Shown: positions 184 to 16,244, counted from the first letter of the stretch. The stretch is 32,000 nucleotides of DNA from Candidatus Saccharimonadota bacterium (GCA_963698035.1 OY969114.1:150001-182000), one strand, 5' to 3'. Notes: generated by a model from the sequence alone, not told the origin. Made by a program: numbers and translations.

Positions 184-271
184 GGGATATATACTATCTC
201 TTAAAAACTAGAGTCCTATAAAATAACTTTTACATATGTTATAGACCTAGAGGAAAAACTAGAGTGTTCTC
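184..271. repeat. Left terminal inverted repeat (88 bp), starting gggatatatactatctc
   Basis: Its reverse complement matches 16072-16159 at every position (checked base by base). It contains an internal 12-bp direct repeat aaaaactagagt at 203-214 and 254-265. Confidence 0.97.
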
Positions 272-307: not shown

Positions 308-1039
308 TCAGTCAGTTCTTGTCACATTCAGAATTTTACCGCTATTATTGACGTAAAATACAATTTGGCAGGGATATGTTGCGTTTTGAGGCGCGCAGTT
401 TACATTAGCCTGTTTCACAGACTGGTTGCCATAATACGTATTTGTTATGTTGGTTATAGTGCCTGTCGTGTTCATCTGTTTGAGCCAAGCATTAACTTCA
501 GCAGTTATTGTACTATTAGAGACATTTGCAGGAGCCTGACATTGATTGGTGTACCTATTAACAACATATCCGTTTGTGCAACCACAATCTATAGCACACG
601 AGTTATTTGCACGCTCTTGCGCAGTGCAGATAGCATCTCCACAATAAGCTTTCAAGCATGCACCATAGCTACTGCAGTAGTACCCAGACTGGCAGGAGGT
701 TGCAGTACAAGATAATATGGGTTGGCTACTTGAGGATTGGTTATTCAAGTTAGTATTGGTTAGGAGAAAGAATCCCCCAACTATAACTATTACAACTATA
801 ACGCCAATAATCAAGAAGAACTTTGGTTTGAAATGGCCAAATATTAACTTATTTTCAGCTTTCTTGTTCTCTTTTTGCACTTCGGCCGCAGATCTCGCTT
901 TGCTCTCGACTTTGCTTTCAATAATTTCTAATTTTGCACCGCAGCTATGACAGAATTTTGATTTAATGGAGTTTTTAGCGCCACAGTTAGGGCATTCTAC
1001 TCTTTTTGACTTGATCGTTTTTCTAGTTTTTGCAGCCAT
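308..1039 (-). CDS. Membrane protein with an N-terminal zinc ribbon, one TM helix and a Cys-rich, NxS/T-rich ectodomain
   Basis: CPNCGAKNSIKSKFCHSCGAKL zinc ribbon. TM helix FFLIIGVIVVIVIVGGFFLL. Many Cys residues and N-glycosylation sequons follow. It is the last gene of the leftward operon. Confidence 0.7.
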   Translation of the reverse strand: MAAKTRKTIKSKRVECPNCGAKNSIKSKFCHSCGAKLEIIESKVESKARSAAEVQKENKKAENKLIFGHFKPKFFLIIGVIVVIVIVGGFFLLTNTNLNNQSSSSQPILSCTATSCQSGYYCSSYGACLKAYCGDAICTAQERANNSCAIDCGCTNGYVVNRYTNQCQAPANVSNSTITAEVNAWLKQMNTTGTITNITNTYYGNQSVKQANVNCAPQNATYPCQIVFYVNNSGKILNVTRTD

Positions 1040-2865: not shown

Positions 2866-2873
2866 AAGTTGAG

Positions 2874-4238
2874 TTACGGCTTGGTTATTGTTGTTAAGAT
2901 CTTGGTATTTTTCAGATGCTTTTGCCTTCCAACAGGACTGAAGCGTATTGCCGACTTTATCTTCGGAGTTTTACCTGTCAATAGCTTGGATAATAGGATA
3001 CTCGGAAGCCCGTAGTATAGCGTTTCCTTTGATGATATATAGTTAAGTCCAACTGTGAAAATCTCATTATAAGCTGCCCTTACTGGTAGTAGGTCATCAT
3101 CTGGCTCAATTTCAACAATAACACAGAATTGTTTCCATTTTTCTAGATTTCTCAGATCATCTAATTTTATTTCGTCTACTAATTTCCGCACGTTTACAGT
3201 ATCATCAACATATTCTATCCTTTCGGCTATGAGGAAATCATACAGCCCCAGCAAAGTAAAAAGACTAGGGTACATGCTTGTAAAATCAAGCGCCGTAACG
3301 AGGCAGGGTTGTTTTCTGATTCTAGCTTCTACTCTCCCGCCATAATAAGCTTGTGATATTTTTCCATATATCGAAGCTGGGACATCAGGATTAAGCACCA
3401 TATAAGGAGTTATGCCAAGCTCTTCAAGAAATGCCTTGCCAATTGAAGCAGAAGAAAAGACGTTAGGTAGCGGTAATTTTACTCCAAATCTATCATATTC
3501 ACTTTTCAAGTGTGTGAACAGCTCGGCAGTAGCCAAAGTGTCCTTTATGTTGTATGCTATGTACTCTTTTGTTATCTTTCCATGCTCTCCGGCCTCGAGT
3601 TTGTAGTATTTCTTATTCCATCGCTCGGCAGCCCGTTTCAAGGAGATATGTTTATCATCAGAAAAAATAATCGCCAGGTTTTGGCAATCGATAAAGTATC
3701 CACGAACTTTTTTAGCGTATTTCGTGGTATGGAATTCTATGCAGGATTCTGCGGTGTTAATGTGCTTTAGTCTAATTGCCGGATGCTTATCTTGTTTACT
3801 GAGTTTGAGTGTGAAGCCACCATTCATCCAACCTCTTGCATAACCATAATTTATAGTTAATCGGGATAAATCAAACGGTAAATTGAAGCCTATGCATGGT
3901 ACTTCGTCCTTATGGACTGTTGGATAAAAAACAGTTTCAAGAAACGTCTCCAGGTCGTATAATCTTATAGTGGGATCATGATTGCAGTAGCTTTGCAATA
4001 CCTCAAGTTCATTTTTAGTAACTTCAACTGGATTATAAAATAGCCCTAACTTCTCTACTATTTCACCACGCATGATAACAAATGATCCAAACGTAAGTGC
4101 CTGGCGGGGGTCGGTTCGAGTTTCGCAGTCAAAGGAAAAGATTCTTTCATAGCTTGGTACACTATATCGCCTTGGCTTGTCTGATCGTGGCTTGTTGTTT
4201 TTCTTTTTGACGTTGAATGCTCTAAAGGCTACTTCCAT
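2874..4238 (-). pseudogene. polB: Protein-primed family-B DNA polymerase, C-terminally truncated: exonuclease domain and motif A only
   Basis: ExoI FSFDCETRTD, ExoII GFNLPFDLSRL, ExoIII YNIKDTLATAELF and motif A LDFTSMYPSL are present. The ORF ends about 125 aa after motif A. Motif B (Kx3NSxYG), motif C (YxDTDS) and KxY are not found in this ORF or in other frames downstream. Confidence 0.8.
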
Positions 4239-4524
4239 GCTTATCCATTCCCCGTTTCTTAAGCCGTTTACCTATCAGTTCAAGCAACGAGCCAATTGAG
4301 ACATCTTCAAAGTCATGTTTATCTTCAGGACTAGCTTTTCTGCTTCTAGCTTTGGGTGGAAAAGCGTTTTGATCGGAGGTTATTTTCCGGTGGCAACAGA
4401 AACAAAGAAGGATTTTTGTTTTGGGGTCGTTTATACGGCCATACGCGTGATGGTACTCACCTAAAACTCTTGGATCTGATTCTTGGCATATAGCACAACT
4501 TCTCTGAGAGGTTTCAGCAAGCAT
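4222..4524 (-). CDS. HNH endonuclease
   Basis: CAICQ...EYHHAYGR...LLCFCCHRKIT fits the CxxC...HH...CxxCH pattern. It overlaps both neighbours, which suggests translational coupling within an operon. Confidence 0.8.
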   Translation of the reverse strand: MLAETSQRSCAICQESDPRVLGEYHHAYGRINDPKTKILLCFCCHRKITSDQNAFPPKARSRKASPEDKHDFEDVSIGSLLELIGKRLKKRGMDKHGSSL

Positions 4525-5092
4525 ATATCTCTCCTCCGAATTCTTGCTCGCGACTTAACTCGATCTCCTTTATCTGCTCTATTCTAGTCTCCAAATGGTG
4601 CTTTTTGCCTTCGGCATCAATGATCACCCTTTTCTTGTACTTTTCAAGAAGGGTCAGGTCACCAGAATATTCTAAAAGCTTCTTAGTATCGTTGAAGTAT
4701 GCCCCTATCAGGTGAGCCATCTCCGAGCCTCTTATAACCACGCTTCTTACCCTGCCTCTCTCGTATATGACAAGGCCTCTTTCGATCCAATCCTGGGGCT
4801 TGGCTTTCCAGCGTCCCTTTCTCTTGCGCAGGTAGCCCCTTAGCTGGGCTTTTACGGTCCGGGGGTCTATTCCCACCTGCCGTGAAGCAATGGTCAAATA
4901 ATGACCATTCCTCACAAGCCGGATCACTTCCAGAGCCCTTACGCGCAGTTCCTTCTCTTTAGGGCTTAACGTGTTCCAGGGCTTAGAGGAGGCAGAGAGG
5001 CGTTTTAAGCCTCTCTTGCGCCTTTTAGGCGTCGACGACATCCTCATCTGCACTCTCTTCGTCCTTTTCGTTCTGTTGCAAGGCCTGTTCAA
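4514..5092 (-). CDS. HTH DNA-binding protein, a casposon-associated type
   Basis: Basic N-terminus followed by LTIASRQVGIDPRTVKAQL (helix-turn-helix). The true start is probably the internal Met at 5047 (MRMSSTPKRRK), because the upstream part overlaps the RHH gene. Confidence 0.6.
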   Translation of the reverse strand: MNRPCNRTKRTKRVQMRMSSTPKRRKRGLKRLSASSKPWNTLSPKEKELRVRALEVIRLVRNGHYLTIASRQVGIDPRTVKAQLRGYLRKRKGRWKAKPQDWIERGLVIYERGRVRSVVIRGSEMAHLIGAYFNDTKKLLEYSGDLTLLEKYKKRVIIDAEGKKHHLETRIEQIKEIELSREQEFGGEIYAC

Positions 5093-5363: not shown

Positions 5364-5454
5364 TTTATTACCAAGTACATAGTAAAGCTTATTAATTTTA
5401 AACGTACCATTAATGTACGTTATCACAGAAAAGCGTACATATAGGGGAACATTT
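5364..5454. promoter_or_regulatory. Divergent control region between the leftward (RHH-HTH-HNH-PolB) and rightward (wHTH, R-M) gene sets, with a palindromic candidate operator
   Basis: aacgtac-cattaat-gtacgtt inverted repeat at 5401-5421, a further gcgtac at 5433-5438, and A/T-rich TATA-like tracts (ttaattttaaa at 5390-5400). Confidence 0.35.
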
Positions 5455-6381
5455 ATGAATACGTTCGAACTTTCTAGGATCTTGGAAGATAAGGTCGTTA
5501 GGAAATACGTTGTCTATTTTCTGCCTGGCCCGATAACAATTACCGAGGTAGCGAAAAAAGTTGGTGTTAAGAACAGAAGTAAGCTCACAAATATGATTCG
5601 TAATTTACACGATTATAAAGTGGATAAAAAGCAGTACAGAGCCAAAAATTCGAAGCCTATTCAATTAGCCGGCAGTAGATTAATCAGCGACTATATGACA
5701 GCACTTTTTAAGTTAAATAAAGATGAAAGAGATTCATTAGTTACATTCATATCGAACGTTACAATAAAGGAAGAAATAATAGACGGTAAAAAGATAATAA
5801 AGAAAGAAAAAACAATCGAAGAATTTTTATTAAAAAACAATAAGGATTTAGATCAACTTCTAAATAAACTGATCTTATGGATTTTTAAAGTAGATACGAT
5901 AACAAAAATGTCTAATATTATTGATCCGGTCTATGTATCTGATTTTGATTCATTGCTTTATGAAGATTATCAATCTCCAGATCCAGAACGAGAATTAGAC
6001 ATAAGAAAGAAGAAACTGGATCTAGCAGTCATAAATAGGAGAAAATGGAAAAAAGCGAGGACTTTAAGACAGGAGATAATGGACTTAGAAATGGCACCAA
6101 GACGAGAGAAATCGGAACTAGAAATAGCTCTAACAGAGTTTGCTAAGCATAATACAAAAGGATTTGCATTTATCAATAAGATAATCAAATCGGACATAAC
6201 TACTTCTATCGGGATCAAAAACCTCTATGAATTAATATATGGAAACTTAAAAGGTTATGAAAAAGAACTAAAGTTTAGACTTGCAATATATGAACGTTTA
6301 ATGAAAGATGACAGTTTGATATATGACCCATATACTCGCATTATTCAAAAAAGAACTGATTTTAGGAAAAGAAGGATCTAG
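5455..6381 (+). CDS. Hypothetical Lys-rich protein with a possible N-terminal winged-helix domain
   Basis: ATG 5455 is preceded by tagggg. PITITEVAKKVGVKNRSKLTNMIRNL resembles a wHTH. The rest is coiled-coil-like with low complexity. The ORF-track start at 5413 lies inside the palindrome. Confidence 0.55.
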   Translation: MNTFELSRILEDKVVRKYVVYFLPGPITITEVAKKVGVKNRSKLTNMIRNLHDYKVDKKQYRAKNSKPIQLAGSRLISDYMTALFKLNKDERDSLVTFISNVTIKEEIIDGKKIIKKEKTIEEFLLKNNKDLDQLLNKLILWIFKVDTITKMSNIIDPVYVSDFDSLLYEDYQSPDPERELDIRKKKLDLAVINRRKWKKARTLRQEIMDLEMAPRREKSELEIALTEFAKHNTKGFAFINKIIKSDITTSIGIKNLYELIYGNLKGYEKELKFRLAIYERLMKDDSLIYDPYTRIIQKRTDFRKRRI

Positions 6382-6512: not shown

Positions 6513-9248
6513 ATGGCTACAGAAGGATATAATCTAAGCGAGAAGGAAACGCGAAATAAGATTATTGATCCACAACTAAAAGGAGTCGGGTGGGCTAGTC
6601 GCTATTACAAAGAAGAAGTGAATCCAGTAAAATCAGATATAAAAAACAAAGATTATGTTTTGTTTTCTGGAAATGTCGAAAGAAATGTAGATCTGTTTAT
6701 TGACTATTTGTTGCTTGCCGAAGATTATACGCCCTTAGCTATTATTGAAGCCAAAAAATATTCCAAAGATCCGGAAAAGGGACGGATACAGGCTAGAAGT
6801 TATGTAAAAGAAATAACTTCAAAAACAGGGTATAAAATACCAATTTTCTTAACCAATGGACAGACTTGGAAGATAATAGACCAAGACGGTATAGAAAGAG
6901 ATGTGAGTGGGCCTTTTTCGCAAGACGATTTGAAAAGAAGACATGAATTATATCTGGGTCGAAAGCGACCTACCGAGATCAAGATAAATCTTAAAATTGT
7001 AGATAGGCCGAGAAACGCTACAAATGTTAAAAAATTGAGCGAACATTTCGAGTCTGGTCAACGTTCAGCTCTAATCCAAATGGCTACTGGAACAGGAAAG
7101 ACACGCGTCGCTATGGCCATTATTGACATTTTAAAAAATGCGAATTATGTCCGTAATGTACTATTTATCGCTGATCGAACTGCACTTGCAAATCAAGCGA
7201 AATCAAACGGATTCAAGAAATTTTTCAGCGAACCTGTTGGAGACTTAAGAGAGGGTAAGGGAAAAATTAGTAGATTCTACGTTACAACTGTTCAGACTTT
7301 AACAGCAGGAGGCAAAACAAAAAGATATGAGGATTTTAGCCCCGCATTTTTTGATTTGATTGTATTTGATGAAGCTCACCGTTCTTTGTATGATAAAAAT
7401 CATGTTCTATTCAGATATTTTGATTCTATAAAGATAGGCTTAACGGCGACCCCAACAGATCTTGAAACAAGGAATACATATGAATTATTTAACTGTAAAA
7501 ATGGTGTACCAACCGTGGACTACCCCTATGATGACGCTGTGCTAGATAAAGTACTGGTACCATATAGGGGAGAAACAATAGAAACAAAAGTTCTCTCGCT
7601 GGGAATTGAAGGCGCTGAGCTCACTGATGATTTAAAGGACAAGTTAAGGCAACAGGAAGTAAACCCCGAGAGCGTTGTATTTACCGGCTCAGAATTCGAC
7701 CGAATATTTATGGATGATAAAACTAACGAATTAATAATTCAACGCTTCCTTGAAAGATGCTATAAATCAGATGAAGGAAAACCCGCCAAATCTATAGTCT
7801 TCTGTGCAAGTCAACGCCATGCCAAACATATGAAGAAGATTTTCAATAATCTCTTTCCTCAGTTAAGCAGTGATGTCCAGGTTATTACTTCTGAAATGGA
7901 TAGAGCTGAGGATGAAGTTAGGCGCTTTAAAAATGAATCAGAGCCTAGAATCGCGCTATCTGTAGGAATGCTGGACACAGGAGTAGATATCCCAGAAGTA
8001 TGTAATTTGGTGTTCGTTAAACCAGTTTTTTCAGCTGTAAGGTTCTGGCAGATGGTAGGAAGAGGCACTAGAAACCGGGTTGCGTGTGACCATCCAGAGT
8101 GGCTTCCAGAAAAAAACAAAAAAGATTTTATGATATTAGATTTCAAGATTGGCGGGCACTCAAATATAGAATATCATAAATTCAAGATTAATAAAGAAAG
8201 CAAAACTGTAGACATGATGACCCGTATCTTCATAAATAGAGTTAAACTGCTAAATAAATCACTAGATAAATCACAGCGAGCAATTATAATAAAGAAAATT
8301 CTCGAAGATATTGGATCTTTAAACAAGAATTCATTTATAGTTAGGGAAAAAATACAGATAATAAAGAAAATTGAATCTGACTCATTCAACCTAGAAAAAT
8401 ATATTGAAGAACTTAATAACGAAATAGCCCCCTTGATGATATTGAAACAGGGTACAAATCCTTATACTACTTCGTTCGTTCTGAATTCAGAGAAATTATT
8501 TGCACTTATTTTAGATAGGGATAATGATAAAATAGAAACTATTAGGATTAGTGTTCTTGAACCAATGATAGAAAATGTAGCTAGGAGAAACAATTTAACA
8601 GAGGTCAAGGAAAAGGCTAACGCTCTGAAGACAGTTCTTCAAGATGAATTCTGGGATGACTTAACTTTCGAGAAGACCGAATTCCTAATAAAAGAAATTG
8701 CACCCCTAATGAAGTACTATAGCCCTGATCCACGAAAAATAGTTCAAGTAGATGCGCTGGACATAATAACAGATGTGCAAGGATTTGAAAGAGAATTAAA
8801 GGAAGATGAAGATTTAAAGAAACTGATAAAGGAGAATCCGCTAATTAAAAAATTGAAGAATGGAGAGGGGCTAACAGCTGACGAACTAAGGCAGCTTGTA
8901 GATATCTTTCAGAAAATCAAGCCGGAAATCAGCATTCCTAATATACAGCAAAGTTATGGCGAAGATTTTATGTTATTCCTTCATGAGGCTATAGGGTTAT
9001 CAAAAACTTACGACCCTAAAGAATTAATTGAAAGGCAATTTGATAATTATATTCTAAAGAATAGCCATTACAATTCTAAGCAATTGGAGTTCTTGAATCT
9101 TTTGAAAAAAGTGTTTGTAGAGCAAAAACAGATTTCAATAGAAGACTTTGGCAAATCCCCACTAGCAGATGAACGACCACTTGATTTGTTCGAAGAGAAA
9201 CAATTGAAAATAATAGTTAAAAACTGTAATAGGATTAAATTTAAATAA
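6513..9248 (+). CDS. hsdR: Type I restriction enzyme R subunit (DEAD/DEAH helicase-nuclease)
   Basis: N-terminal SEKETRNKIIDPQL..GW (HsdR_N). PD-(D/E)xK motif IDYLLL...AIIEAKK. Walker A QMATGTGKTRVA. DEAH box VFDEAHRS. Motif VI QMVGRGTR. ATG 6513 is preceded by aaagggg. Confidence 0.9.
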   Translation: MATEGYNLSEKETRNKIIDPQLKGVGWASRYYKEEVNPVKSDIKNKDYVLFSGNVERNVDLFIDYLLLAEDYTPLAIIEAKKYSKDPEKGRIQARSYVKEITSKTGYKIPIFLTNGQTWKIIDQDGIERDVSGPFSQDDLKRRHELYLGRKRPTEIKINLKIVDRPRNATNVKKLSEHFESGQRSALIQMATGTGKTRVAMAIIDILKNANYVRNVLFIADRTALANQAKSNGFKKFFSEPVGDLREGKGKISRFYVTTVQTLTAGGKTKRYEDFSPAFFDLIVFDEAHRSLYDKNHVLFRYFDSIKIGLTATPTDLETRNTYELFNCKNGVPTVDYPYDDAVLDKVLVPYRGETIETKVLSLGIEGAELTDDLKDKLRQQEVNPESVVFTGSEFDRIFMDDKTNELIIQRFLERCYKSDEGKPAKSIVFCASQRHAKHMKKIFNNLFPQLSSDVQVITSEMDRAEDEVRRFKNESEPRIALSVGMLDTGVDIPEVCNLVFVKPVFSAVRFWQMVGRGTRNRVACDHPEWLPEKNKKDFMILDFKIGGHSNIEYHKFKINKESKTVDMMTRIFINRVKLLNKSLDKSQRAIIIKKILEDIGSLNKNSFIVREKIQIIKKIESDSFNLEKYIEELNNEIAPLMILKQGTNPYTTSFVLNSEKLFALILDRDNDKIETIRISVLEPMIENVARRNNLTEVKEKANALKTVLQDEFWDDLTFEKTEFLIKEIAPLMKYYSPDPRKIVQVDALDIITDVQGFERELKEDEDLKKLIKENPLIKKLKNGEGLTADELRQLVDIFQKIKPEISIPNIQQSYGEDFMLFLHEAIGLSKTYDPKELIERQFDNYILKNSHYNSKQLEFLNLLKKVFVEQKQISIEDFGKSPLADERPLDLFEEKQLKIIVKNCNRIKFK

Positions 9249-9250
9249 TA

Positions 9251-9280
9251 TCTACAAATGTAGACATATATATTTATAAA
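9251..9280. promoter_or_regulatory. Perfect palindrome tctaca-aa-tgtaga directly upstream of a TATA box (tttataaa); candidate operator and promoter of the RHH-hsdS-hsdM unit
   Basis: Palindrome at 9251-9264 and TATA at 9273-9280. The ATG at 9303 sits about 23-30 nt downstream, which is leaderless-type spacing. A third half-site tctaca lies at 9321-9326. Confidence 0.4.
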
Positions 9281-9302
9281 CCTTAACTCACTAATCCTTA
9301 TT

Positions 9303-9677
9303 ATGGAATATAGAACCGTATCTACAAGGCTCTCGATTGACGAGTTTACTCTCATTAATGACTATTGTAAACGAAAAAGCATCAACCCATCAGCACTAAT
9401 AAAAGAACTCATCTTTGATGAGATAACTCCGTCTATCCCAGCACATATCGCAGGGAAAAATATTATCGAATACGATAAGAAAAAAGACTCCTTTTCTTGG
9501 TGTATTGAGCTAGATAGTGGTGAGCGCATTACAGCCATTAAAAGCATCTCGCCCGAATATATGAGAGATTTGTGCGGTGCCCTCGCAAGCGCTTTAACTT
9601 CAAGGAATGAATCACAAGGTAAGAAAAGAAGGGGTTCCGTCCCTGTACCTAAAAAAATAATCAAGGGGAGAAAATGA
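9303..9677 (+). CDS. Ribbon-helix-helix protein embedded in the R-M operon; candidate controller
   Basis: RTVSTRLSIDEFTLINDYCKRKSINPSALIKELI fits the RHH pattern. Its stop overlaps the hsdS start (ATGA at 9674-9677). Confidence 0.6.
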   Translation: MEYRTVSTRLSIDEFTLINDYCKRKSINPSALIKELIFDEITPSIPAHIAGKNIIEYDKKKDSFSWCIELDSGERITAIKSISPEYMRDLCGALASALTSRNESQGKKRRGSVPVPKKIIKGRK

Positions 9678-10837
9678 AATTTGACTACGTACAGTTAACG
9701 AATTATTTTGATATAGTTAGCCCTGGCATAAAACCATTCAAGGGAAATAAAAAATATATTGCAACTGGTTCGATGGAAACGGGCGAAATTGTGGGTTTCG
9801 ATCAAGTTAGCTATGAATCCAGACCAAGCAGGGCCAATATGGAGACTGTTGAAGACGATATACTGTTTGCTAAAATGAAAGACACCGAAAAAGTTTTCAT
9901 TATCACAAGGAAAGAAACCGAAAATATATATTCTACCGGTTTCAGTATCTTGAGAGTACGAGACCGAACGCAATTTGAACCTAAATTTGTCTACTATTGG
10001 TTGCGATCAGACGCTTTTAAGAGAGTTAAAAACCGAGATTCTACAGGTGCTACACAAAAAGCTCTAAACGAAGGCAGGCTTGCTAAATTCAGAATACCAA
10101 AACCTCCCCTAGAAACCCAAAAGAAACTTGTTGTGATATTTGAGAAGGTAGATAAACTAATAGAATTGCGACTAGATGCAGATAAACTAACTGACGAGTT
10201 CTTAAAAAGTGTTTTTTATGAAATTTTTGGAGATCCTGTTAAAAATACCAAAAAATGGCCTTTAAAGAACCTTAAGGAATTTGGGAAAATAAAAACTGGA
10301 AATACCCCTCCAAGAAAAGAACTAAACTATTATGGGGATTTTATAGATTGGATTAAATCAGATAACCTAAATACACCTTTTACATATTTGACACAAAGTG
10401 AAGAAAAGCTATCTCAAGATGGTGCAAAGGTTGGTAGAATAGCTCCAAAAAGGTCGGTTCTGGTAACTTGTATCGCAGGTAGTTTGTCCGCAATAGGTAA
10501 TGCCGGGATCGCCCAAAAAGATGTTGCGTTTAACCAACAGATCAATGCTATTATACCAAATACGGAAGTAAATGAGTTATTTTTATACTACTTGCTGGTG
10601 AACTCCAAAACTTATATTCAAAGTTTTTCTACACACTCAATGAAAGGGATGATTAGCAAGGGGGTATTTGAAAAAATTAGTCTAATTTATCCAGCGTCCA
10701 AGCTTCAATTTAAATTTGGGGAAATAAGTCAAAATATAGAAATGATGAAAGATAAGCAAAATGAATCTAAAAAACAGATTGATTATTTATTCAAAGCCTT
10801 AATACAAAATACGTTTAGAGGTGATTCACTATGTTAG
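9674..10837 (+). CDS. hsdS: Type I R-M specificity subunit
   Basis: Two target-recognition halves are separated by a conserved helical spacer (PPLETQKKLVVIFEKVDKLIELR). The C-terminal conserved region is QIDYLFKALIQNTF. It overlaps hsdM by 7 nt. Confidence 0.88.
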   Translation: MKFDYVQLTNYFDIVSPGIKPFKGNKKYIATGSMETGEIVGFDQVSYESRPSRANMETVEDDILFAKMKDTEKVFIITRKETENIYSTGFSILRVRDRTQFEPKFVYYWLRSDAFKRVKNRDSTGATQKALNEGRLAKFRIPKPPLETQKKLVVIFEKVDKLIELRLDADKLTDEFLKSVFYEIFGDPVKNTKKWPLKNLKEFGKIKTGNTPPRKELNYYGDFIDWIKSDNLNTPFTYLTQSEEKLSQDGAKVGRIAPKRSVLVTCIAGSLSAIGNAGIAQKDVAFNQQINAIIPNTEVNELFLYYLLVNSKTYIQSFSTHSMKGMISKGVFEKISLIYPASKLQFKFGEISQNIEMMKDKQNESKKQIDYLFKALIQNTFRGDSLC

Positions 10838-12318
10838 ACCAAGAATTAAAAAGTAAAATAAATAAGTTGTGGGATAAGTTTTGGAGTGGTGGTATCTCAA
10901 ATCCACTCATGGCAATCGAGCAAATTTCGTATCTACTTTTCATAAAACGCTTAGAGGATGAAGATGTTCTAAGGCAACAGAATGCAAGACTTACCCGAGA
11001 GCATTATGCCTCTATCTTCCAAGGAAACAGTGATTGCAAGTGGAGTGTCTGGACCGAATATTCTGCAGATAAAATACTGGATCATGTGCGCACTAAGGTA
11101 TTTCCATTCCTAAAAAGCCTTGGCGAAAAGGATTCTCTGTACAATCAATACATGCAAGATGCCGTTTTTGTGATTCCTACTCCGTCAGTGCTTATCGAGG
11201 CCGTGAAAATTATAAATGAACTGAAAATCAAGGAGCAGAATCGTGATACGCAAGGAGACATATACGAGTATCTTCTTTCAGAATTGACAACAGCAGGTAA
11301 AAACGGACAGTTCAGAACTCCACGTCATATAATCAAGATGATGGTGGAGTTATTAAACCCGAAATTTGGTGAGAACATCTGTGATCCGGCGTGTGGCACA
11401 GCTGGTTTCCTTGTTATCGCGTATGAACATATTCTGAAGCTGAATACCTCAAAGGATTTGATAAAGAAAGATGACGTTGGAAATGAATATGGTTTCAAGG
11501 GAGACAAGATAAACTCTACACAATGGGAGATTTTACGCAAGGAAACATTTTATGGTTTTGATATCGATTCAACAATGGTAAGAATTGCGCTCATGAATCT
11601 TATGATGCACGGAATAGATTATCCAAACATAAAACAAATGAATAGTTTATCCACCCGATATACTGAAAATAATCAGTATGATGTAGTCTTGGCAAATCCT
11701 CCATTCAAGGGTAGTATCGACGAATCTGAACTCAGTGATCAGCTTACTATAAAGACGACAAAAACTGAGGTTCTTTTCTTGGAGTTAATGAACCGGGTAA
11801 TGCGTATTAGTGGGAGGTGCGCAGTAATAGTGCCGGATGGTATTCTTTTTGGTGGATCAAAAGCTCATAAACAAATAAAGCAAATGCTTCTAAAGAAATG
11901 CAGGCTAGACGCAGTTATCTCAATGCCTTCTGGTATTTTCAAGCCTTATGCAGGGGTTTCTACAGCTGTACTTGTATTTACAAAGGGGGAAGAGACAAAG
12001 AAGGTCTGGTTCTATGAAATGACCTCAGACGGTTTTACTCTTGATGATAAACGCACTCTCATTGACGGAAAAGGTGATATCCCGGATATAATTGAGAAGT
12101 TCAAGAGACGCGATAAGGAAAGATTTGATGATAGAAAAGCAAAATGCTTCTTCATCCCAATTGAGGAAATAGAAAAAAATGATTTTGACCTTAGCATCTT
12201 AAAATATAAAGAAATTGAACATAAAGAAGTTAAATATGAAAAACCTCAAGCTATAAAGAAGAAAATATTAGAATTAGAGGAGGAAATTATTAGAATTGGA
12301 AACGAAATAGATGTCTAA
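10831..12318 (+). CDS. hsdM: Type I R-M N6-adenine DNA methyltransferase subunit
   Basis: HsdM_N-like N-terminus (LWDKFWSGGISNPLMAIEQISYLLFIKRL), GQFRTPRHI, SAM motif I DPACGTAGFL, and catalytic motif IV LANPPF. Confidence 0.93.
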   Translation: MLDQELKSKINKLWDKFWSGGISNPLMAIEQISYLLFIKRLEDEDVLRQQNARLTREHYASIFQGNSDCKWSVWTEYSADKILDHVRTKVFPFLKSLGEKDSLYNQYMQDAVFVIPTPSVLIEAVKIINELKIKEQNRDTQGDIYEYLLSELTTAGKNGQFRTPRHIIKMMVELLNPKFGENICDPACGTAGFLVIAYEHILKLNTSKDLIKKDDVGNEYGFKGDKINSTQWEILRKETFYGFDIDSTMVRIALMNLMMHGIDYPNIKQMNSLSTRYTENNQYDVVLANPPFKGSIDESELSDQLTIKTTKTEVLFLELMNRVMRISGRCAVIVPDGILFGGSKAHKQIKQMLLKKCRLDAVISMPSGIFKPYAGVSTAVLVFTKGEETKKVWFYEMTSDGFTLDDKRTLIDGKGDIPDIIEKFKRRDKERFDDRKAKCFFIPIEEIEKNDFDLSILKYKEIEHKEVKYEKPQAIKKKILELEEEIIRIGNEIDV

Positions 12319-12329
12319 TTAATGATAAT

Positions 12330-14792
12330 ATGGCTTATAGGAGAAATTTAGGTTTATTTACAAAGGAAGAGCGCGCTAAATGGAGTTATTATCTTTTAGC
12401 ACTCAAGGATATTCTAGACGAAGAGATATGGTCTAGAGAAAATAAGCTCCAAATAGAGCAAGTTCTGAACAGTTTAAATAATGATCAGCTAACCGTTATA
12501 CGTAATAAATACGGATTAGTTGGCACTACTACTGTCATTCAAATTCTTAGTGATAAGAAAAGAGCAATGGACCTCTATTGCTTTTGGCACTTTGCCGAAA
12601 TGCACGTTCCTAGTATAAAAGTTTACTTAAATCTCCCAAGATTGCACGGAATGCCCTTAAAGAAAATTGCTTTTGTAAAAACGCTTACACTTAATGACGA
12701 GGATATGACGGCGATTTTACTTTATAGTCTATGGCGCAGGTATGCGGTATTCGAGAGAAGTTACCAACTTGCAGAAGTCACTGAGCAACAGTTAACTCTA
12801 TTTACACGAAAAATTAGACGTATAAGCACCTTACTATCATACAGTGTTAAAAAGTATGTATTATACGAAAAGCCATACAGGCTAAAAATGCATGGCAAAT
12901 TCCATAATAAGTACATTTACTTATTTATGCGCTACAAAGGCGATGAAGAAGTACTTGCATTTTCAAATAATAGAAGTCAGAGTAAGTATGCTTATAAATT
13001 CGTCATATTAGACCCAGTTTTGAAAACTTTTAATATAGTAGTACATAGTGACAATGAGAGACGAACAATTTTAAATTACATCTCTAAGAAAATTAAATTA
13101 AAAATATTATTTGATTATGGAGATTTGAATGTTTCAAAAGATAAATTCTCTAAACTTTTTGTTTCTGAACCGACAAGAATTCCGATAATAAGTATTACTT
13201 ATGGCAATTCAAAACTCCCTACCGGAGCAAAAATAATGATTCAAGGAAATCCAGCATTAAATCCTATTAACAGGGCATTGGCTTTTCTAAATCCAAACGT
13301 AGTAGAAGCTAATGATATATCAAACATTAAGAGATTCACTATCCTATTTGAAGGACAGCCGGTTAGCATAGCTATAGATAAAATAATAGATGAATTAAAT
13401 TTAGGATACTGTAAATTAAGAATACCGGAGAGAGGGCTGGATTTTGAATTCAGAGAAAAACTGATTAGAAAGTTTAATTCTGATTTTCAAATACCAATAA
13501 ATAAATACTTCTTATTTGGTGAAGGAAATATAGATTATAAGACTATAATCAACTTTCTTCTCAATCAGAAAAATGTAAATTTAAAAGATAAGCCGATAGT
13601 TTATAGACGCACTTTAGACCAAATGTATAACATTGGCTTGTTAGAAAAACCCAAAGAGCATCCAGAACGTTTTTGTGTAAACCAGAGATGCGATAGACGA
13701 TATCGTAGTACCTGGAAGAGAGGACTTTGTATATGCGAGAAGGAACTGGTTATTTTCGGCACATCTTTCAGTGTCAAAATTAATGCAGAGTACGTAACTA
13801 ATTTCATTATAGACTATTTAAACTCTAAGAACTTAAAGTTTACTAAGGCAAAAAGAACATTCAACAAGAGAAAAAGAGATGTAATAGAAATATATACGCC
13901 GAGAGGAAATGTAACAATAATACCAGTCAAATCTACTAAGGTAGAACCGGAATTGTTAGATTATCTAAGAGATAACGAAATTAATTCCGTGTTAGTGCCA
14001 TATCCTAATACTACTGAAACTCAAGAAATAAGAAATAGGAAACATGGCGTTATTCCTGTTTCTGAACTTGTATATACTAAATTATACGAGCAGACTAAAG
14101 ACCCACTTCTTGCTGAGATAAATGGTACTATAGATAACGCCATTGATAGAACTGTTAATAATTACGAATATGCTATAGCGAGGTTAGAAATGAAATCAGG
14201 TTACGACTACCATTTATTTGAAAAGGATATGTATTCACTAATTCATTTTATATCTCCAATAGCACAAAGGCTTGGAGATGACCTTATTGGCAAACGAGTT
14301 TCGGATGGCCTAGTTTCTATTCCACTGGATGAAGAAAGACGGTTCTGTGTAACATGGGATTGCAAGTATACGTCGGATATATATAATTTCAGAGAACCCT
14401 ATAAGAAGACCGTAACATATCTGCAAAAATTATCAAAGTTACCAATCGTTAGAGCTTTCGGAGGCTTAAGAACATTTGTTTTTATCTCTAATAATCCTTC
14501 TGAAAAAAGATTTAGGAAATTCTGTAGAAGACTTATCAAGAATTATAAATGGCGCGGCAAACTGGTTCTATTAAGATCGAGCCAGCTAATAAGCCTTTCA
14601 AAACACTTTAAAAGTATAAGATATAACGTTACATCTTCTCCAGAGTTAAGGTCTAGATATTATGGCGATTTGGCAAATTTATTTTATATGTCCGGAAGAA
14701 AAATACATATAATTAACGACGATGAAGTAGCAAATATAACTAACCAAACATATGAGGCTCCTCGAATACATATAACAAGACCTGATGTCTAA
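12330..14792 (+). CDS. Large orphan protein (820 aa) with a Cys cluster and a C-terminal PD-(D/E)xK-like nuclease signature
   Basis: It starts 12 nt after hsdM on the same strand. CVNQRCDRRY...CICEKE is a possible Zn-binding cluster. The C-terminus reads FEKDMYSLI...RVSDGLVSI...VTWDCKYTS...TFVFISN, which fits E...D...(D/E)xK restriction-endonuclease-fold spacing. I recognise no other family motif. Confidence 0.7.
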   Translation: MAYRRNLGLFTKEERAKWSYYLLALKDILDEEIWSRENKLQIEQVLNSLNNDQLTVIRNKYGLVGTTTVIQILSDKKRAMDLYCFWHFAEMHVPSIKVYLNLPRLHGMPLKKIAFVKTLTLNDEDMTAILLYSLWRRYAVFERSYQLAEVTEQQLTLFTRKIRRISTLLSYSVKKYVLYEKPYRLKMHGKFHNKYIYLFMRYKGDEEVLAFSNNRSQSKYAYKFVILDPVLKTFNIVVHSDNERRTILNYISKKIKLKILFDYGDLNVSKDKFSKLFVSEPTRIPIISITYGNSKLPTGAKIMIQGNPALNPINRALAFLNPNVVEANDISNIKRFTILFEGQPVSIAIDKIIDELNLGYCKLRIPERGLDFEFREKLIRKFNSDFQIPINKYFLFGEGNIDYKTIINFLLNQKNVNLKDKPIVYRRTLDQMYNIGLLEKPKEHPERFCVNQRCDRRYRSTWKRGLCICEKELVIFGTSFSVKINAEYVTNFIIDYLNSKNLKFTKAKRTFNKRKRDVIEIYTPRGNVTIIPVKSTKVEPELLDYLRDNEINSVLVPYPNTTETQEIRNRKHGVIPVSELVYTKLYEQTKDPLLAEINGTIDNAIDRTVNNYEYAIARLEMKSGYDYHLFEKDMYSLIHFISPIAQRLGDDLIGKRVSDGLVSIPLDEERRFCVTWDCKYTSDIYNFREPYKKTVTYLQKLSKLPIVRAFGGLRTFVFISNNPSEKRFRKFCRRLIKNYKWRGKLVLLRSSQLISLSKHFKSIRYNVTSSPELRSRYYGDLANLFYMSGRKIHIINDDEVANITNQTYEAPRIHITRPDV

Positions 14793-14801: not shown

Positions 14802-16022
14802 TTATAATTTGCCCATTACTTTGTTGTAGATTTTTATCCTCTTACCCTCTCGTATATTCTTTTGTATGTACCATAGCGTAGATTTATTTATTCCTAACTT
14901 TTTACGCTCTTCTGGTGTTATCCCTAGTATATCTTCCTTCACGTTAGTTGAGTCGTTACGTTTTAGTTTTATCTCTGGCAATGTGAAGACCAAGCCTGCA
15001 GCCTTGCCTTGGATATGATTGCTTAGCGCCCTCAGGTTCTCAAAGATCAAGACCTGGTTCTTGTAGCTAGCGTTCCTATGAGTTGTGGTCTCGTTGAAAT
15101 TTATCCTCAATTTCTCGATTAACCTCTTTGCTGTGCCTTCACGAAGTCGTATATGGAAGTTCTCAGTCACGATGAACGATGACTTCTTCAGGGCCTTCTC
15201 CTCAAGTAGCTGGAGAACGGACATGTCAACAAGCCACCTGTACAGCTCCTGGAAGTCATAAACCAAGGGCATCTTGCTCGAGCTTGCTTCATGTAGGAAC
15301 CCTATCGATGGGTCCAGGCCAATGGAGTTTATTGATCGTCTTACCTCACTCTCGAGTATTGAGTAGCCGTAATTAAGCAACGCATTTACCTCGTCCGAGG
15401 CATGCATATTGTGATAAAAACTCTTGTTCTTGCGGCTCTGGAAATTGAATTCAGGCGCGGCCTGCCTGAACACCTTGGCCATCTGCTCCCAGTAGATGTT
15501 GGCCATGCGTGCCTCGTACAGCATCAGGACATTAAGCTTGTTTTTGATTGTCTTGGCGCGCCTTATATCCCTATAGTAGGCATTGAACTCAGTGCTTGAA
15601 CTGATCTTGATGTGCTCCTTATCCAAGACCGTGTAATAAGCAGACAGCTCTTCCAAGAATTCAAGCTCGGACTCAACCTTGCTTTCTATGATTGATAAAG
15701 CTATCTTATACCGCCATGCATCATCCAGGTACGCTTTGTACTGATCCAGCTTCAACTTCCCGGAGATTGGTTCCTTTGGCATGGTTGTACTCAGGAGATT
15801 CCCGTCCCAGTTTAACATGATAATCGGTATGTCATGCTTCATCAGCCATCTTGAGGCATCAAACGAGATGCAGCCGCTATGACCGTCTATTATCACGGAA
15901 TCATAATGGATCTGGTGCGGGTAAAACTCTAGTTTAGTATTCTCAAGCTTATTGGTAATAGTAAGCCTGCGCTGGTCTACATTGATAGATGTTCCAAATC
16001 CAGAGATTAATAATGGATTCAT
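14802..16022 (-). CDS. cas1: Cas1-family integrase (casposase) with a C-terminal HTH
   Basis: N-terminal Cas1 beta domain (LLISGFGTSINVDQRRLTI...DSVIIDGHSGCISFDASRWLMKHDIPIIML). Catalytic-region motifs are LMLYEARMANIYW, NALLNYGYSILESEV, LDPSIGFLHE and LVYDFQELYRWLVD. The C-terminal HTH is GINKSTLWYIQKNIREG. It lies 50 bp inside TIR-R. Confidence 0.92.
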   Translation of the reverse strand: MNPLLISGFGTSINVDQRRLTITNKLENTKLEFYPHQIHYDSVIIDGHSGCISFDASRWLMKHDIPIIMLNWDGNLLSTTMPKEPISGKLKLDQYKAYLDDAWRYKIALSIIESKVESELEFLEELSAYYTVLDKEHIKISSSTEFNAYYRDIRRAKTIKNKLNVLMLYEARMANIYWEQMAKVFRQAAPEFNFQSRKNKSFYHNMHASDEVNALLNYGYSILESEVRRSINSIGLDPSIGFLHEASSSKMPLVYDFQELYRWLVDMSVLQLLEEKALKKSSFIVTENFHIRLREGTAKRLIEKLRINFNETTTHRNASYKNQVLIFENLRALSNHIQGKAAGLVFTLPEIKLKRNDSTNVKEDILGITPEERKKLGINKSTLWYIQKNIREGKRIKIYNKVMGKL

Positions 16023-16071: not shown

Positions 16072-16159
16072 GAGAACACTCTAGTTTTTCCTCTAGGTCT
16101 ATAACATATGTAAAAGTTATTTTATAGGACTCTAGTTTTTAAGAGATAGTATATATCCC
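16072..16159. repeat. Right terminal inverted repeat (88 bp)
   Basis: Exact reverse complement of 184-271. Confidence 0.97.
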
Positions 16160-16173
16160 TTAAGTTAATTGCT
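16160..16173. repeat. Right copy of the 14-bp target-site duplication; overlaps the last 4 nt of tRNA-Glu
   Basis: ttaagttaattgct is identical to 170-183. Its innermost 4 nt (16170-16173) encode A70, G71, C72 and A73 of the tRNA. Confidence 0.9.
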
Positions 16174-16244
16174 CCGATCGGGATTTGAACCCGAGTTTCA
16201 GCCTTGAGAGGGCCGTGTCCTTGACCGAACTAGACGATCGGGGC
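16170..16244 (-). tRNA. tRNA-Glu(CUC), 75 nt, CCA not encoded
   Basis: Manual cloverleaf: acceptor GCCCCGA/TCGGAGC (one C3-A70 mismatch), D stem GTCT/GGAC, anticodon stem CGGCC/GGCTG, loop CTCTCAA, T arm TCGGG-TTCAAAT-CCCGA, discriminator A. Confidence 0.85.

What the first reader, a model, noticed from the sequence alone, without database searches (positions are those of the whole stretch)
6513..12318. Complete type I restriction-modification system carried as casposon cargo
hsdR (nuclease motif, DEAH helicase), hsdS (two TRDs) and hsdM (NPPF, DPACGTAGF) all appear intact and co-oriented inside the TIRs. A self-synthesizing transposon that mobilises a full R-M system would spread a defence or addiction module. 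That could explain why the element persists even with a crippled polymerase (post-segregational selection). I know of methyltransferase and nuclease cargo in casposons but not of a complete type I system. This needs a literature and database check.
Basis: partly seen in the sequence, partly recalled or inferred. Interest (0 to 1): 0.65.

Follow-up and report, generated by a model that had tools for sequence, protein, structure and literature searches.

The report
Casposon carrying a type I restriction system
A 16-kb Cas1-driven transposon (casposon) inserted at a tRNA-Glu gene of an archaeon carries an apparently intact three-subunit type I restriction-modification defence system as cargo; I found no published report of this combination, but it is a natural extension of known biology, not a new mechanism.

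Summary
hsdR (6513-9248), hsdS (9674-10837) and hsdM (10831-12318) are full length, keep all catalytic motifs and are co-oriented. They lie inside a sharply delimited 15,976-bp family-2 casposon: 88-nt perfect TIRs, a perfect 14-bp target-site duplication at the 3' end of tRNA-Glu, a solo casposase, and a PolB that stops before catalytic motif C.

The R-M genes are part of a larger five-gene cassette: hsdR, a ribbon-helix-helix gene, hsdS, hsdM and an 820-aa putative PD-(D/E)xK nuclease. The same cassette family (HsdR/HsdM 79-87% identical) occurs in a second, fully delimited casposon at tRNA-Pro whose casposase is only 50% identical. It also occurs in three tyrosine-integrase elements. So it is a roving defence cassette captured by different mobile elements.

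Among 86 related casposase loci none has this HsdR. Two or three have other type I genes beside cas1, and several have type IIG-like or type II R-M genes. No paper I could search reports a complete type I system in a casposon.

The addiction idea is untested and is weakened by what is known of type I systems. Verdict: real, a new member of a known kind, moderate interest.

The parts
170..183 (.). Left target-site duplication TTAAGTTAATTGCT
   Evidence: Identical 14-mer at 16160-16173; only two copies in the window.
184..271 (+). Left terminal inverted repeat (88 nt, starts GGGATATATAC)
   Evidence: 88/88 identical to the reverse complement of 16072-16159.
308..1039 (-). Zn-ribbon protein, 243 aa, cargo of unknown role
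   Evidence: Pfam Zn_Ribbon_1 7e-7. No homolog in 86 related casposase loci.
1045..2865 (-). 606-aa ORF with no signal peptide, probably an N-terminally truncated surface-protein gene joined to the PolB breakpoint
   Evidence: NCBIfam Fsx1 partial hit 4e-16, far below cutoff. No Pfam hit. No homolog in related casposons. Sequence.
2829..4238 (-). Truncated casposon PolB: exonuclease motifs and motif A only; stop codon at 2874-2876, homology continues to about 2829
   Evidence: Aligns only to residues 1-~462 of 876-922-aa PolBs of relatives. DFTSMYP is present; YxDTD is absent from the whole window.
4222..4524 (-). Small conserved casposon ORF (100 aa), possibly HNH/EndoVII-like
   Evidence: Homologs in L001, L024, L040. 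Weak Endonuclease_7 hit, E 0.057.
4514..5092 (-). Conserved casposon ORF (192 aa), possible HTH protein
   Evidence: Homologs in 35 independent casposase loci. Weak HTH_23 hit.
5413..6381 (+). 322-aa ORF of unknown function upstream of hsdR
   Evidence: No family hits above threshold. One weak homolog directly upstream of cas1 in L009.
6513..9248 (+). hsdR, type I restriction/motor subunit (911 aa), EcoAI/EcoEI-like
9303..9677 (+). RHH (DUF6290/RelB-like) gene, 124 aa, conserved between hsdR and hsdS; candidate regulator
   Evidence: Pfam DUF6290 6e-5, NCBIfam RelB 4e-4, both below cutoff. A 124-125-aa gene sits in the same position in L090, L092, L097 and L098. tblastn shows 63-81% identity in L089, L090/91 and L092/93. 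4-nt overlap with hsdS.
9674..10837 (+). hsdS, specificity subunit (387 aa) with two TRDs
10831..12318 (+). hsdM, N6-adenine methyltransferase subunit (495 aa)
12330..14792 (+). 820-aa cassette companion: Zn ribbon plus C-terminal PD-(D/E)xK-like domain (E631, PD659G, D677-x-K679); putative nuclease
   Evidence: 66% identical homolog directly after hsdM in L090/L091. Family of 68 clusters. Invariant residues. AF2 model pLDDT 83. Weak fold matches to RdgC and N.BspD6I. No Pfam or PADLOC hit.
14802..16022 (-). Casposase (Cas1 homolog, 406 aa) with C-terminal HTH, reading inward from the right end
   Evidence: Pfam Cas_Cas1 3e-57. Best PDB hit 6OPM 2e-65 against best CRISPR Cas1 1.7e-24. More than 1,100 relatives. 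No CRISPR array.
16072..16159 (-). Right terminal inverted repeat
16160..16173 (.). Right target-site duplication, overlapping the tRNA 3' end by 4 nt
16170..16244 (-). tRNA-Glu(CTC), the integration target
   Evidence: ARAGORN; Rfam tRNA 55.5 bits. Related casposase loci L010 and L043 also contain a tRNA-Glu(CTC) gene.

Best explanation
The window holds a 15,976-bp family-2 casposon integrated at the 3' end of tRNA-Glu(CTC) in an archaeon. The host is probably a small-genome Micrarchaeota/DPANN lineage; this is inferred only from nearest relatives.

The element keeps what integration needs: an intact casposase, perfect 88-nt TIRs and a 14-bp TSD. It has lost the catalytic half of its PolB.

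Its cargo includes a compact five-gene defence cassette:
- hsdR, hsdS and hsdM, a type IB-like (EcoAI/EcoEI-like) type I restriction-modification system;
- a conserved RHH gene translationally coupled to hsdS;
- an 820-aa putative PD-(D/E)xK nuclease.

Inferred mechanism, from the established biology of type I enzymes:
- HsdM2S1 methylates adenines in a bipartite site set by the two TRDs.
- HsdR2M2S1 translocates and cuts unmodified incoming DNA.
- The RHH protein probably tunes cassette transcription.
- The 820-aa protein adds a second nuclease activity of unknown trigger.

The cassette is an independently mobile module acquired by recombination. The same family sits in another, distantly related casposon and in tyrosine-integrase elements.

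The most likely benefit is defence of the host, and of the resident element, against viruses and rival mobile DNA. That would select for keeping a casposon that can no longer replicate itself. Stabilisation by post-segregational killing is possible but secondary.

Shown: anatomy, gene integrity, boundaries, recurrence. Inferred: activity, regulation, selective benefit.
For: Boundaries: TIR 88/88, TSD 14/14, tRNA-Glu target.

Casposase: closest solved structure is 6OPM at 2e-65 against 1.7e-24 for the best CRISPR Cas1. Methanocella arvoryzae Cas1 is among relatives of the sister casposase at 52% identity. No CRISPR array is present.

R-M integrity: all motifs present, full length relative to homologs, hits to PADLOC, Pfam and PDB.

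Purifying selection: pN 0.07-0.22 against saturated pS 0.70-0.90.

Compact operon: 4-nt and 7-nt overlaps and an 11-nt gap.

Cassette mobility:
- The five-gene block recurs next to a tyrosine integrase (L090/91).
- A four-gene version recurs in L092/93 and L098/99.
- A second casposon carries HsdR 82%, RHH 81% and HsdM 83% identical to the window's. It has ~230-nt TIRs and an identical 14-nt TSD, CCCGATTCTATTTT, at tRNA-Pro, although its casposase is only 50% identical.
- Nucleotide homology to relatives is confined to about 6454-14792.

Foreign origin: cargo GC is 32-39%, against 44% for cas1 and 53% for the host flank.

PolB defect.
Against: No expression, methylation or restriction data exist, so activity is inferred from sequence alone.

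Purifying selection was measured across lineages, not on this terminal branch. A very recent silencing or regulatory defect would not be visible.

The RHH and 820-aa assignments rest on sub-threshold family hits, conserved motifs and weak fold matches.

Host taxonomy rests on relatives of mobile genes only, and the cluster look-up gave no names.

No empty site or second copy was found, so recent mobility is inferred only from the perfect TIRs and TSD.
Confidence: 0.8

Rival explanations
1. Addiction module. The R-M system stabilises the casposon by post-segregational killing: cells that lose the element lose methylation and are cut by residual HsdR complexes.
For: R and M functions are both present and intact inside the element. 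The element persists despite a dead polymerase. R-M systems on mobile elements can behave this way; type II examples are listed in PMC2993543.
Against: For the type I systems studied (EcoKI, EcoR124I), restriction alleviation protects the chromosome when unmodified sites appear, and lethality is seen only without that control (PMC2993543; PMC12255303). A chromosomally integrated element is lost rarely, so there is little for an addiction mechanism to act on. Nothing in the sequence distinguishes addiction from plain defence.
Confidence: 0.2
2. The R-M genes are a decaying or silent passenger: structurally intact ORFs that are no longer expressed or active. The whole element would be a fossil kept only because deletion is slow.
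For: PolB is already truncated and joined to a truncated foreign ORF. In the sister casposon (L089) hsdS is split into 201-aa and 187-aa ORFs and PolB into 495-aa and 380-aa ORFs.
Against: All five cassette ORFs here are full length with every catalytic motif. pN is far below pS. The TIRs are 100% identical and the TSD is perfect, which argues for a recent insertion and against an old fossil.
Confidence: 0.12
3. The cassette belongs to a separate integrative element nested inside the casposon, so it would not be casposon cargo in the strict sense.
For: In three of six contexts the same cassette lies beside a tyrosine integrase.
Against: No integrase, att-like direct repeats or extra tRNA fragment lie between the TIRs in the window. 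Homology to the integrase-linked copies stops at the cassette edges. Whatever the route of entry, the genes now lie between the casposon ends and would move with them.
Confidence: 0.08
4. The methyltransferase part mainly acts as an epigenetic regulator or as self-protection of the element against host restriction; restriction would be incidental.
For: Single methyltransferases are known casposon cargo: AciBoo-C1 and HenMar-C1 (PMC4046053).
Against: A full-length HsdR with intact nuclease and motor motifs is conserved at 79-82% identity across contexts, with low pN. That would not be expected if only methylation mattered.
Confidence: 0.08

Closest known systems
Family-2 casposons (AciBoo-C1, MetMaz and MetArv-C1 type; Krupovic et al. 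2014, PMC4046053; Hickman et al. 2020 casposase structure 6OPM)
   Same: Solo Cas1-type casposase with a C-terminal HTH, terminal inverted repeats, a 14-bp target-site duplication, insertion at the 3' end of a tRNA gene, casposon-type PolB lineage, small HTH/HNH-like accessory genes, and variable cargo that includes DNA methyltransferases or a restriction endonuclease.
   Different: The cargo here is a complete hsdR-hsdS-hsdM type I system plus two companion genes. PolB lacks its catalytic half. cas1 sits at the very end of the element reading inward, an arrangement shared with its 78% relative L003. The host is probably a DPANN archaeon.
Pipolins as defence islands (PMC11551731)
   Same: Another class of PolB-encoding integrative elements, usually at tRNA genes, whose cargo is dominated by exchangeable defence systems, including R-M systems.
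   Different: Pipolins are bacterial, use tyrosine recombinases and a primer-independent PolB. The same paper found the 48 reference casposons much poorer in defence genes than pipolins.
Thaumarchaeal cryptic integrated elements carrying HsdM/S/R (PMC6563490)
   Same: Archaeal integrated mobile elements carrying type I R-M systems. Type I subunits are among the commonest arCOGs in those elements.
   Different: In that study the type I systems are shown in integrase-type cryptic elements. The passages I read did not place them in the casposons described alongside.
Type IB restriction-modification systems (EcoAI/EcoEI family)
   Same: HsdR has the EcoEI_R_C domain and its best NCBIfam hit is the EcoAI/FtnUII R subunit. 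The three-subunit architecture is standard, with conserved M and R subunits and variable S TRDs across relatives.
   Different: Gene order is hsdR-RHH-hsdS-hsdM, with an embedded RHH gene. The NCBIfam score is below the equivalog cutoff (248 against 550 bits). The lineage is archaeal. No biochemical data exist.
RptR-controlled type I R-M defence islands (PMC12255303) and C-proteins of type II systems
   Same: A small DNA-binding protein encoded within or beside an R-M operon and conserved with it, thought to control expression.
   Different: RptR is an all-alpha repressor encoded first in gammaproteobacterial islands. Here the candidate is an RHH (DUF6290/RelB-like) protein placed between hsdR and hsdS, and its function is untested.

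Membership tests
Casposon (family 2) | Cas1-family integrase that is closer to casposases than to CRISPR Cas1 and has a C-terminal HTH | tested here: met
   6OPM hit 2e-65 over residues 2-398, against 1.7e-24 for the best CRISPR Cas1. Residues that are invariant across 20 related casposases are, by construction of the alignment, present in the window's copy. M. arvoryzae Cas1 is 52% identical to the sister casposase.
Casposon (family 2) | Cas1 is solo: no CRISPR array or other cas genes adjacent | tested here: met
   No repeat array in the window. Neighbouring ORFs are not cas genes.
Casposon (family 2) | Terminal inverted repeats | tested here: met
   184-271 and 16072-16159, 88/88 identical.
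Casposon (family 2) | Target-site duplication of about 14-15 bp | tested here: met
   TTAAGTTAATTGCT on both sides, 14/14.
Casposon (family 2) | Integration at the 3' end of a tRNA gene | tested here: met
   The right TSD overlaps the 3' end of tRNA-Glu(CTC).
Casposon (family 2) | Casposon-lineage family B DNA polymerase gene present | tested here: met
   ORF 2874-4238 is 57% identical to the PolB N-terminal half in L001 and matches PolB in 29 related loci.
Casposon (family 2) | Intact (self-synthesizing) polymerase | tested here: not met
   Homology ends at about residue 462 of 876-922-aa relatives. Motif C (YxDTD) is absent from the window. The element is therefore a defective, non-autonomous member by descent.
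Casposon (family 2) | Conserved small HTH and HNH accessory genes | tested here: inconclusive
   o4514 has homologs in 35 loci but only a weak HTH hit. o4222 has a weak Endonuclease_7 hit.
Casposon (family 2) | Casposase-dependent transposition | not testable with these tools
   The perfect TIRs and TSD suggest recent insertion. No empty site or second copy was recovered.
Type I restriction-modification system | HsdR with a PD-(D/E)xK nuclease domain and SF2 motor motifs | tested here: met
   D...EAK, GTGKT, DEAH, TATP and QMVGRGTR. Pfam, PADLOC and PDB hits.
Type I restriction-modification system | HsdM with the AdoMet motif I and catalytic motif IV (NPPF) | tested here: met
   DPACGTAGF and NPPF aligned to 5YBB_A. 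PADLOC MTase_I 8e-173.
Type I restriction-modification system | HsdS with two target-recognition domains separated by conserved helices | tested here: met
   Two Methylase_S stretches. Alignment shows TRD1-CR1-TRD2-CR2. PDB 5YBB_D and 3OKG aligned over residues 35-384.
Type I restriction-modification system | All three genes full length, linked and co-oriented | tested here: met
   Gene lengths match those of relatives. Overlapping or near-abutting ORFs.
Type I restriction-modification system | m6A methylation of a bipartite site and ATP-dependent restriction of unmodified DNA | not testable with these tools
   Needs methylome or biochemical data.
Type IB (EcoAI/EcoEI) subfamily | Subfamily-specific HsdR signature | tested here: inconclusive
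   Pfam EcoEI_R_C is above cutoff (45.6 against 24 bits). NCBIfam EcoAI/FtnUII equivalog is below cutoff (248 against 550 bits).
Post-segregational killing (addiction) module | Loss of the genes kills or arrests the cell | not testable with these tools
   Literature on E. coli type I systems argues against strong killing.
Archaeal fusexin Fsx1 (for ORF 1045-2865) | Full-length match to the fusexin model | tested here: not met
   Only residues 32-239 match profile positions 299-518 of 610, at 58.5 bits against a cutoff of 650. No Pfam support.

The most novel reading that the evidence does not exclude
Family-2 casposons of small-genome (DPANN-type) archaea may be regular vehicles for interchangeable restriction-modification and defence cassettes: type I here and in L089; possibly type I of another family in L061 and L034; type IIG-like fusions in L003, L005-7, L048-51 and L063; type II NgoPII-like plus Vsr in L095. 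These cassettes would be traded with tyrosine-integrase elements. On this reading casposons function as mobile defence islands, as pipolins do in bacteria. That would tie the transposon lineage thought to have given rise to CRISPR adaptation to a wider habit of carrying immunity genes.
Probability: 0.4. Interest if true: 0.55.

Novelty: new member of a known kind. Interest (0 to 1): 0.38.

Why it matters
Casposons are studied mainly as the likely ancestors of the CRISPR adaptation machinery. Their cargo has been described as scattered nucleases and methyltransferases, and a 2024 comparison found them poor in defence genes.

This work shows two fully delimited casposons, with distantly related casposases and different tRNA targets, carrying the same complete type I R-M cassette. 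Relatives carry other R-M types in or beside the element. Together this suggests that at least one casposon clade regularly ferries innate-immunity modules and swaps them with integrase-type elements.

That gives a concrete selective reason for hosts to keep casposons, including copies with a defective polymerase. It also supplies a natural setting in which a Cas1 integrase and defence genes travel together.

The finding is an extension of known biology, not a new mechanism. Both the R-M system and the casposon look conventional.

Tried and rejected
1. L034 candidate TIR pair (384-407 and 13484-13507, 24 nt, 88%). Rejected: there is no matching TSD and the pair lies inside an ORF. Whether the type I genes of L034 and L061 lie inside a casposon stays unresolved, because both contigs end within the R-M genes and no TIRs were found. 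Their casposases were not among the retrievable proteins.

2. L095 (type II R-M next to the casposon core). Neither the terminal motif nor any TIR was found within the fetched 16.7 kb, so its boundary is unresolved.

3. Empty-site search through flanking host genes. One look-up found nothing. The other returned only a 2.6-kb contig from the same sample as the element-length contig L002 (ERR10755947), 100% identical to window 16198-18766.

4. Host naming through cluster members gave no names.

5. The sigma-70 promoter and terminator scan showed no enrichment (45 against 39 expected) and does not apply to archaea.

6. The Fsx1 (fusexin) lead for ORF 1045-2865 is only a partial, far sub-threshold hit with no Pfam support. 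I treat the ORF as a truncated surface-protein-like gene and not as a fusexin.

7. 820-aa protein. The profile search against PDB sequences found only the Zn-ribbon region (Trm1, E 0.003). Pfam scans of 30 family members found nothing useful. Foldseek gave only weak domain-level matches.

8. The tRNA-like segment at 18715-18773 was tested as a possible old casposon target remnant. It is unrelated to tRNA-Glu or the TSD.

9. REBASE and DefenseFinder were not available. PADLOC HMMs were used instead.

Full report
**1. What is in the window**

The first 16 kb has 32-45% GC, against 50-55% for the rest. ORF and family scans show the following between about 170 and 16,170:
- a Cas1 homolog (14802-16022, minus strand);
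- a PolB-like ORF (2874-4238, minus strand);
- several small or unknown ORFs;
- a plus-strand block hsdR (6513-9248), a 124-aa RHH-like gene (9303-9677), hsdS (9674-10837), hsdM (10831-12318) and an 820-aa ORF (12330-14792).

To the right lie ordinary archaeal housekeeping genes: DUF460, arginyl-tRNA synthetase, an Obg-like GTPase, an amino-acid permease and NFACT.

**2. Boundaries**

The repeat finder reported a 97-nt inverted repeat. Direct reading and exact comparison refine this to 88-nt TIRs (184-271 and 16072-16159) that are 100% identical and begin GGGATATATAC. They are flanked by a perfect 14-bp direct repeat, TTAAGTTAATTGCT, at 170-183 and 16160-16173. Both motifs occur only at these places in the window.

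The right repeat overlaps the 3' end of tRNA-Glu(CTC) at 16170-16244. The element is 15,976 bp. There is no CRISPR array.

The casposase's best solved relative is 6OPM at 2e-65, aligned over residues 2-398 including the C-terminal HTH. From memory, 6OPM is the M. mazei family-2 casposase. The best CRISPR Cas1 scores 1.7e-24.

These are the hallmarks of a family-2 casposon as defined by Krupovic et al. 2014 (PMC4046053). The 14-bp TSD at a tRNA 3' end matches what I recall for AciBoo-C1 (from memory).

**3.

HsdR has the D...EAK nuclease motif and helicase motifs GTGKT, DEAH, TATP and QMVGRGTR. It aligns through the nuclease and motor domains of 3H1T. At 911 aa it has the same length as its many archaeal homologs, nearly all of which are 904-916 aa.

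HsdM aligns over its full length to 5YBB_A, with DPACGTAGF and NPPF in place.

HsdS has the canonical layout TRD1, central helix, TRD2, C-terminal helix.

PADLOC models call all three subunits as type I: REase_I 9e-106, Specificity_I 6e-68, MTase_I 8e-173. The EcoEI_R_C domain and the best NCBIfam hit (EcoAI/FtnUII R subunit, below cutoff) point to a type IB-like lineage.

The genes are packed as an operon. rhh/hsdS overlap by 4 nt, hsdS/hsdM by 7 nt, and hsdM is 11 nt from the 820-aa ORF.

Against four or five relatives, nonsynonymous differences are low (pN 0.07-0.22) while synonymous sites are saturated (pS 0.70-0.90). The family has therefore been under strong purifying selection.

**4. 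The polymerase is crippled**

PolBs of related casposons are 876-922 aa, with motif A near residue 313-333 and motif C (YxDTD) near 560-590. The window's ORF keeps the exonuclease motifs and motif A (DFTSMYP). It has a stop after codon 454, loses homology at about window position 2829, and motif C is found nowhere in the window.

Directly abutting is a 606-aa ORF with no signal peptide and no homolog in other casposons. The C-terminal half of polB appears to have been replaced by a fragment of an unrelated gene.

**5. The R-M genes are part of a mobile five-gene cassette**

I looked up the closest HsdR homologs in their contigs.
- **L090/L091** (HsdR 79%, HsdM 87%, 820-aa protein 66%): the same block hsdR-RHH-hsdS-hsdM-819 aa, next to a tyrosine integrase.
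- **L092/L093 and L098/L099:** hsdR-RHH-hsdS-hsdM in integrase-linked islands.
- **L097:** a version with an Mrr-type nuclease and other genes embedded, and no visible vehicle.

A 124-125-aa gene sits between hsdR and hsdS in every context. Where I compared sequences (L089, L090/91, L092/93) it is 63-81% identical to the window's RHH gene.

HsdS shares only the conserved helices with its relatives (about 27% identity overall), which implies a different recognition sequence. Nucleotide similarity between the window and these loci is confined to about 6454-14792.

**6. A second casposon carries the same cassette**

The closest HsdR (82%; L089, on a 1.05-Mb contig) lies 8 kb from a casposase that is only 50% identical to the window's. 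With it are an o4514-like gene, a PolB split into 495-aa and 380-aa ORFs, a PemK/HTH block, the RHH gene (81%), a split hsdS and hsdM (83%).

hsdM ends 17 nt before a ~230-nt terminal repeat that ends ...CCTATAATATATACCCC at L089 15974, followed by CCCGATTCTATTTT. I extended the locus leftwards. The partner end, GGGGTATATATTATAGG..., is at L094 17564. It is preceded by the identical 14 nt, which overlap the 3' end of tRNA-Pro(TGG).

This is therefore a second, independently delimited casposon of about 21.8 kb with type I cargo of the same family. A further casposon end starts immediately after the shared 14-mer, at L089 15989, which indicates tandem insertion.

**7. Survey of related casposons**

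I recovered 86 independent loci around related casposases: median length 6.9 kb, 38 at least 8 kb, 29 including PolB. None encodes a homolog of this HsdR.
- **Other type I family:** two loci have type I genes of a different HsdR family (T1R_D3/T1RH_C) beside cas1. L061 has hsdM-hsdS-hsdR and L034 has hsdS-hsdR. L042 has an HsdS fragment. Boundaries could not be fixed.
- **Type IIG-like:** large N6_Mtase/Eco57I/MmeI-type fusions (some with HSDR_N-like and TaqI_C domains) or other N6-methyltransferases sit beside cas1 in L003, L005-L007, L048-L051 and L063.
- **Type II:** L095, whose casposase is 85% identical to L089's, has a C5 methylase, RE_NgoPII and Vsr where L089 has the type I genes. Its boundary is unresolved.

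R-M-type cargo is thus a recurring theme in this clade. This particular cassette is rare in it.

**8. The companion genes**

The 820-aa protein has no Pfam, NCBIfam or PADLOC hit. It belongs to a small family of 68 representative clusters, mostly 800-830 aa.

Invariant residues form a four-cysteine ribbon and a C-terminal E631...PD659G...D677-x-K679 signature, typical of PD-(D/E)xK nucleases. An AlphaFold model (pLDDT 83) gives weak Foldseek matches to the RdgC DNA-binding fold (6e-5) and to the type IIS nickase N.BspD6I (probability 0.97-0.98), with still weaker matches (probability 0.35 or less) to other nucleases.

I read it as a putative DNA-binding nuclease that accompanies the R-M system in some versions of the cassette. 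This parallels the known linkage of Mrr/McrBC-type nucleases to type I systems (PMC2993543) and the Mrr_cat gene embedded in L097. Confidence is moderate to low.

The RHH gene (DUF6290/RelB-like, below cutoff) is a plausible transcriptional controller. RptR is a precedent for a dedicated small repressor of type I systems, though with a different fold (PMC12255303).

**9. Literature**

Full-text searches for casposon together with type I restriction, restriction-modification, defence systems or cargo and reading of the key papers gave the following.
- Krupovic 2014 lists N6 and C5 methyltransferases (AciBoo-C1, HenMar-C1) and a putative restriction endonuclease (MetLum-C1).
- The 2016 Methanosarcina census mentions no restriction genes.
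- The thaumarchaeal mobilome paper shows HsdM/S/R in integrase-type cryptic elements, and the passages I read do not place them in casposons.
- A 2023 review adds nothing on R-M cargo.
- The 2024 pipolin study annotated 48 reference casposons with PADLOC and found far fewer defence genes than in pipolins.

I found no report of a complete type I system in a casposon. The library omits most subscription-journal papers, so this is absence of evidence within what could be searched.

**10. How it most likely works, and why it persists**

Shown: an intact-looking casposase and perfect ends, a dead polymerase, and an intact-looking, selected, compact R-M cassette of foreign composition lying between the ends.

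Inferred: standard type I chemistry (M2S1 maintenance methylation; R2M2S1 translocation and cleavage of unmodified DNA), which would give the host and the resident element protection from viruses and competing mobile DNA.

It is disfavoured for two reasons. Studied type I systems avoid self-killing through restriction alleviation. A chromosomally integrated element is also lost rarely.

**11. Verdict**

The polymerase defect is real. The addiction mechanism is speculative.

Both components are conventional members of known families. Their combination is unreported in the literature I could search but unsurprising, given how often mobile elements carry R-M systems. Interest is moderate (0.38). 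It would be higher (about 0.55) if a systematic census showed that casposons of this clade are habitual defence-cassette carriers.

Noticed in passing
window 1045-2865 (- strand): A 606-aa ORF abutting the PolB breakpoint gives a partial NCBIfam hit to archaeal fusexin Fsx1 (E 4e-16; residues 32-239 against profile 299-518 of 610; far below cutoff). It has no signal peptide, no Pfam hit and no homolog in related casposons. The sequence looks like a Cys/Ser/Thr-rich surface protein with a C-terminal ...CHGSG...SAACYDG... pattern, which by eye might be a cysteine peptidase. Probably a truncated foreign gene, not a fusexin.
   Followed up: partly
window 12330-14792 (+ strand): An 820-aa protein with no hit in any family library belongs to a small family (68 clusters). 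It has an invariant Zn ribbon and an E...PDG...DxK nuclease-like signature, and travels with the type I cassette here and in L090/L091. It may be an uncharacterised defence nuclease.
   Followed up: partly
window 9303-9677 (+ strand); 124-125-aa gene in the same position in L089, L090, L092, L097, L098: A 124-aa RHH (DUF6290/RelB-like) gene is conserved between hsdR and hsdS in every member of this type I family that I examined, and overlaps the hsdS start by 4 nt. It is a candidate built-in regulator.
   Followed up: partly
L089 15743-16271 and L094 17548-17648: Two casposon ends face each other across exactly one 14-nt target copy (CCCGATTCTATTTT) at tRNA-Pro. This implies tandem insertion of a second element whose far end was not found in the fetched sequence. 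A 244-nt plus 41-nt inverted duplication containing an HxlR gene (L089 1-293 and 17369-17660) suggests the second element is an inverted, deleted relative of the first.
   Followed up: partly
L095 388-2749: A casposon core whose casposase is 85% identical to L089's has a complete type II system (C5 DNA methylase, RE_NgoPII, Vsr) where L089 has the type I cassette. TIRs were not found in the fetched 16.7 kb, so it is not proven to lie inside the element.
   Followed up: partly
L003 11270-12976; L005 11212-13449; L006 2834-5587; L049/L051 4742-7465; L063 13509-15161: Several related casposons carry a large N6_Mtase/Eco57I/MmeI-type protein directly beside cas1. Some have HSDR_N-like and TaqI_C domains, which makes them type IIG-like single-chain R-M enzymes.
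   Followed up: partly
L061 4501-9402; L034 13990-18253; L042 12949-13401: Type I genes of a different HsdR family (T1R_D3/T1RH_C) lie a few kb from related casposases, but the contigs end inside the R-M genes and no TIRs could be found.
   Followed up: partly
window 18715-18773 (- strand): Rfam calls a borderline 59-nt tRNA (30.1 bits against 29). It is the 5' part of a tRNA-Arg(CCT)-like gene cut off in the T-arm. It is unrelated to the casposon target; it could be a split tRNA or a remnant of an older integration.
   Followed up: partly
L045 and L063 (same contig, Ga0315282_10000737): Two casposase genes, each with its own PolB, lie about 11 kb apart on one contig. This is another likely case of adjacent or tandem casposons.
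   Followed up: no
L002 (Logan ERR10755947 contig, 15,860 bp): An independently assembled contig holds the cas1-to-ORF-5413 part of the element with 100%-identical proteins. By my coordinate arithmetic its ends fall inside both TIRs (about window 242-16101), as expected if the assembly breaks at the inverted repeats. It adds no new insertion site.
   Followed up: yes
window 26076-26162 (+ strand): ARAGORN calls an 87-nt tRNA-Leu(CAG) that Rfam did not report at gathering threshold.
   Followed up: no
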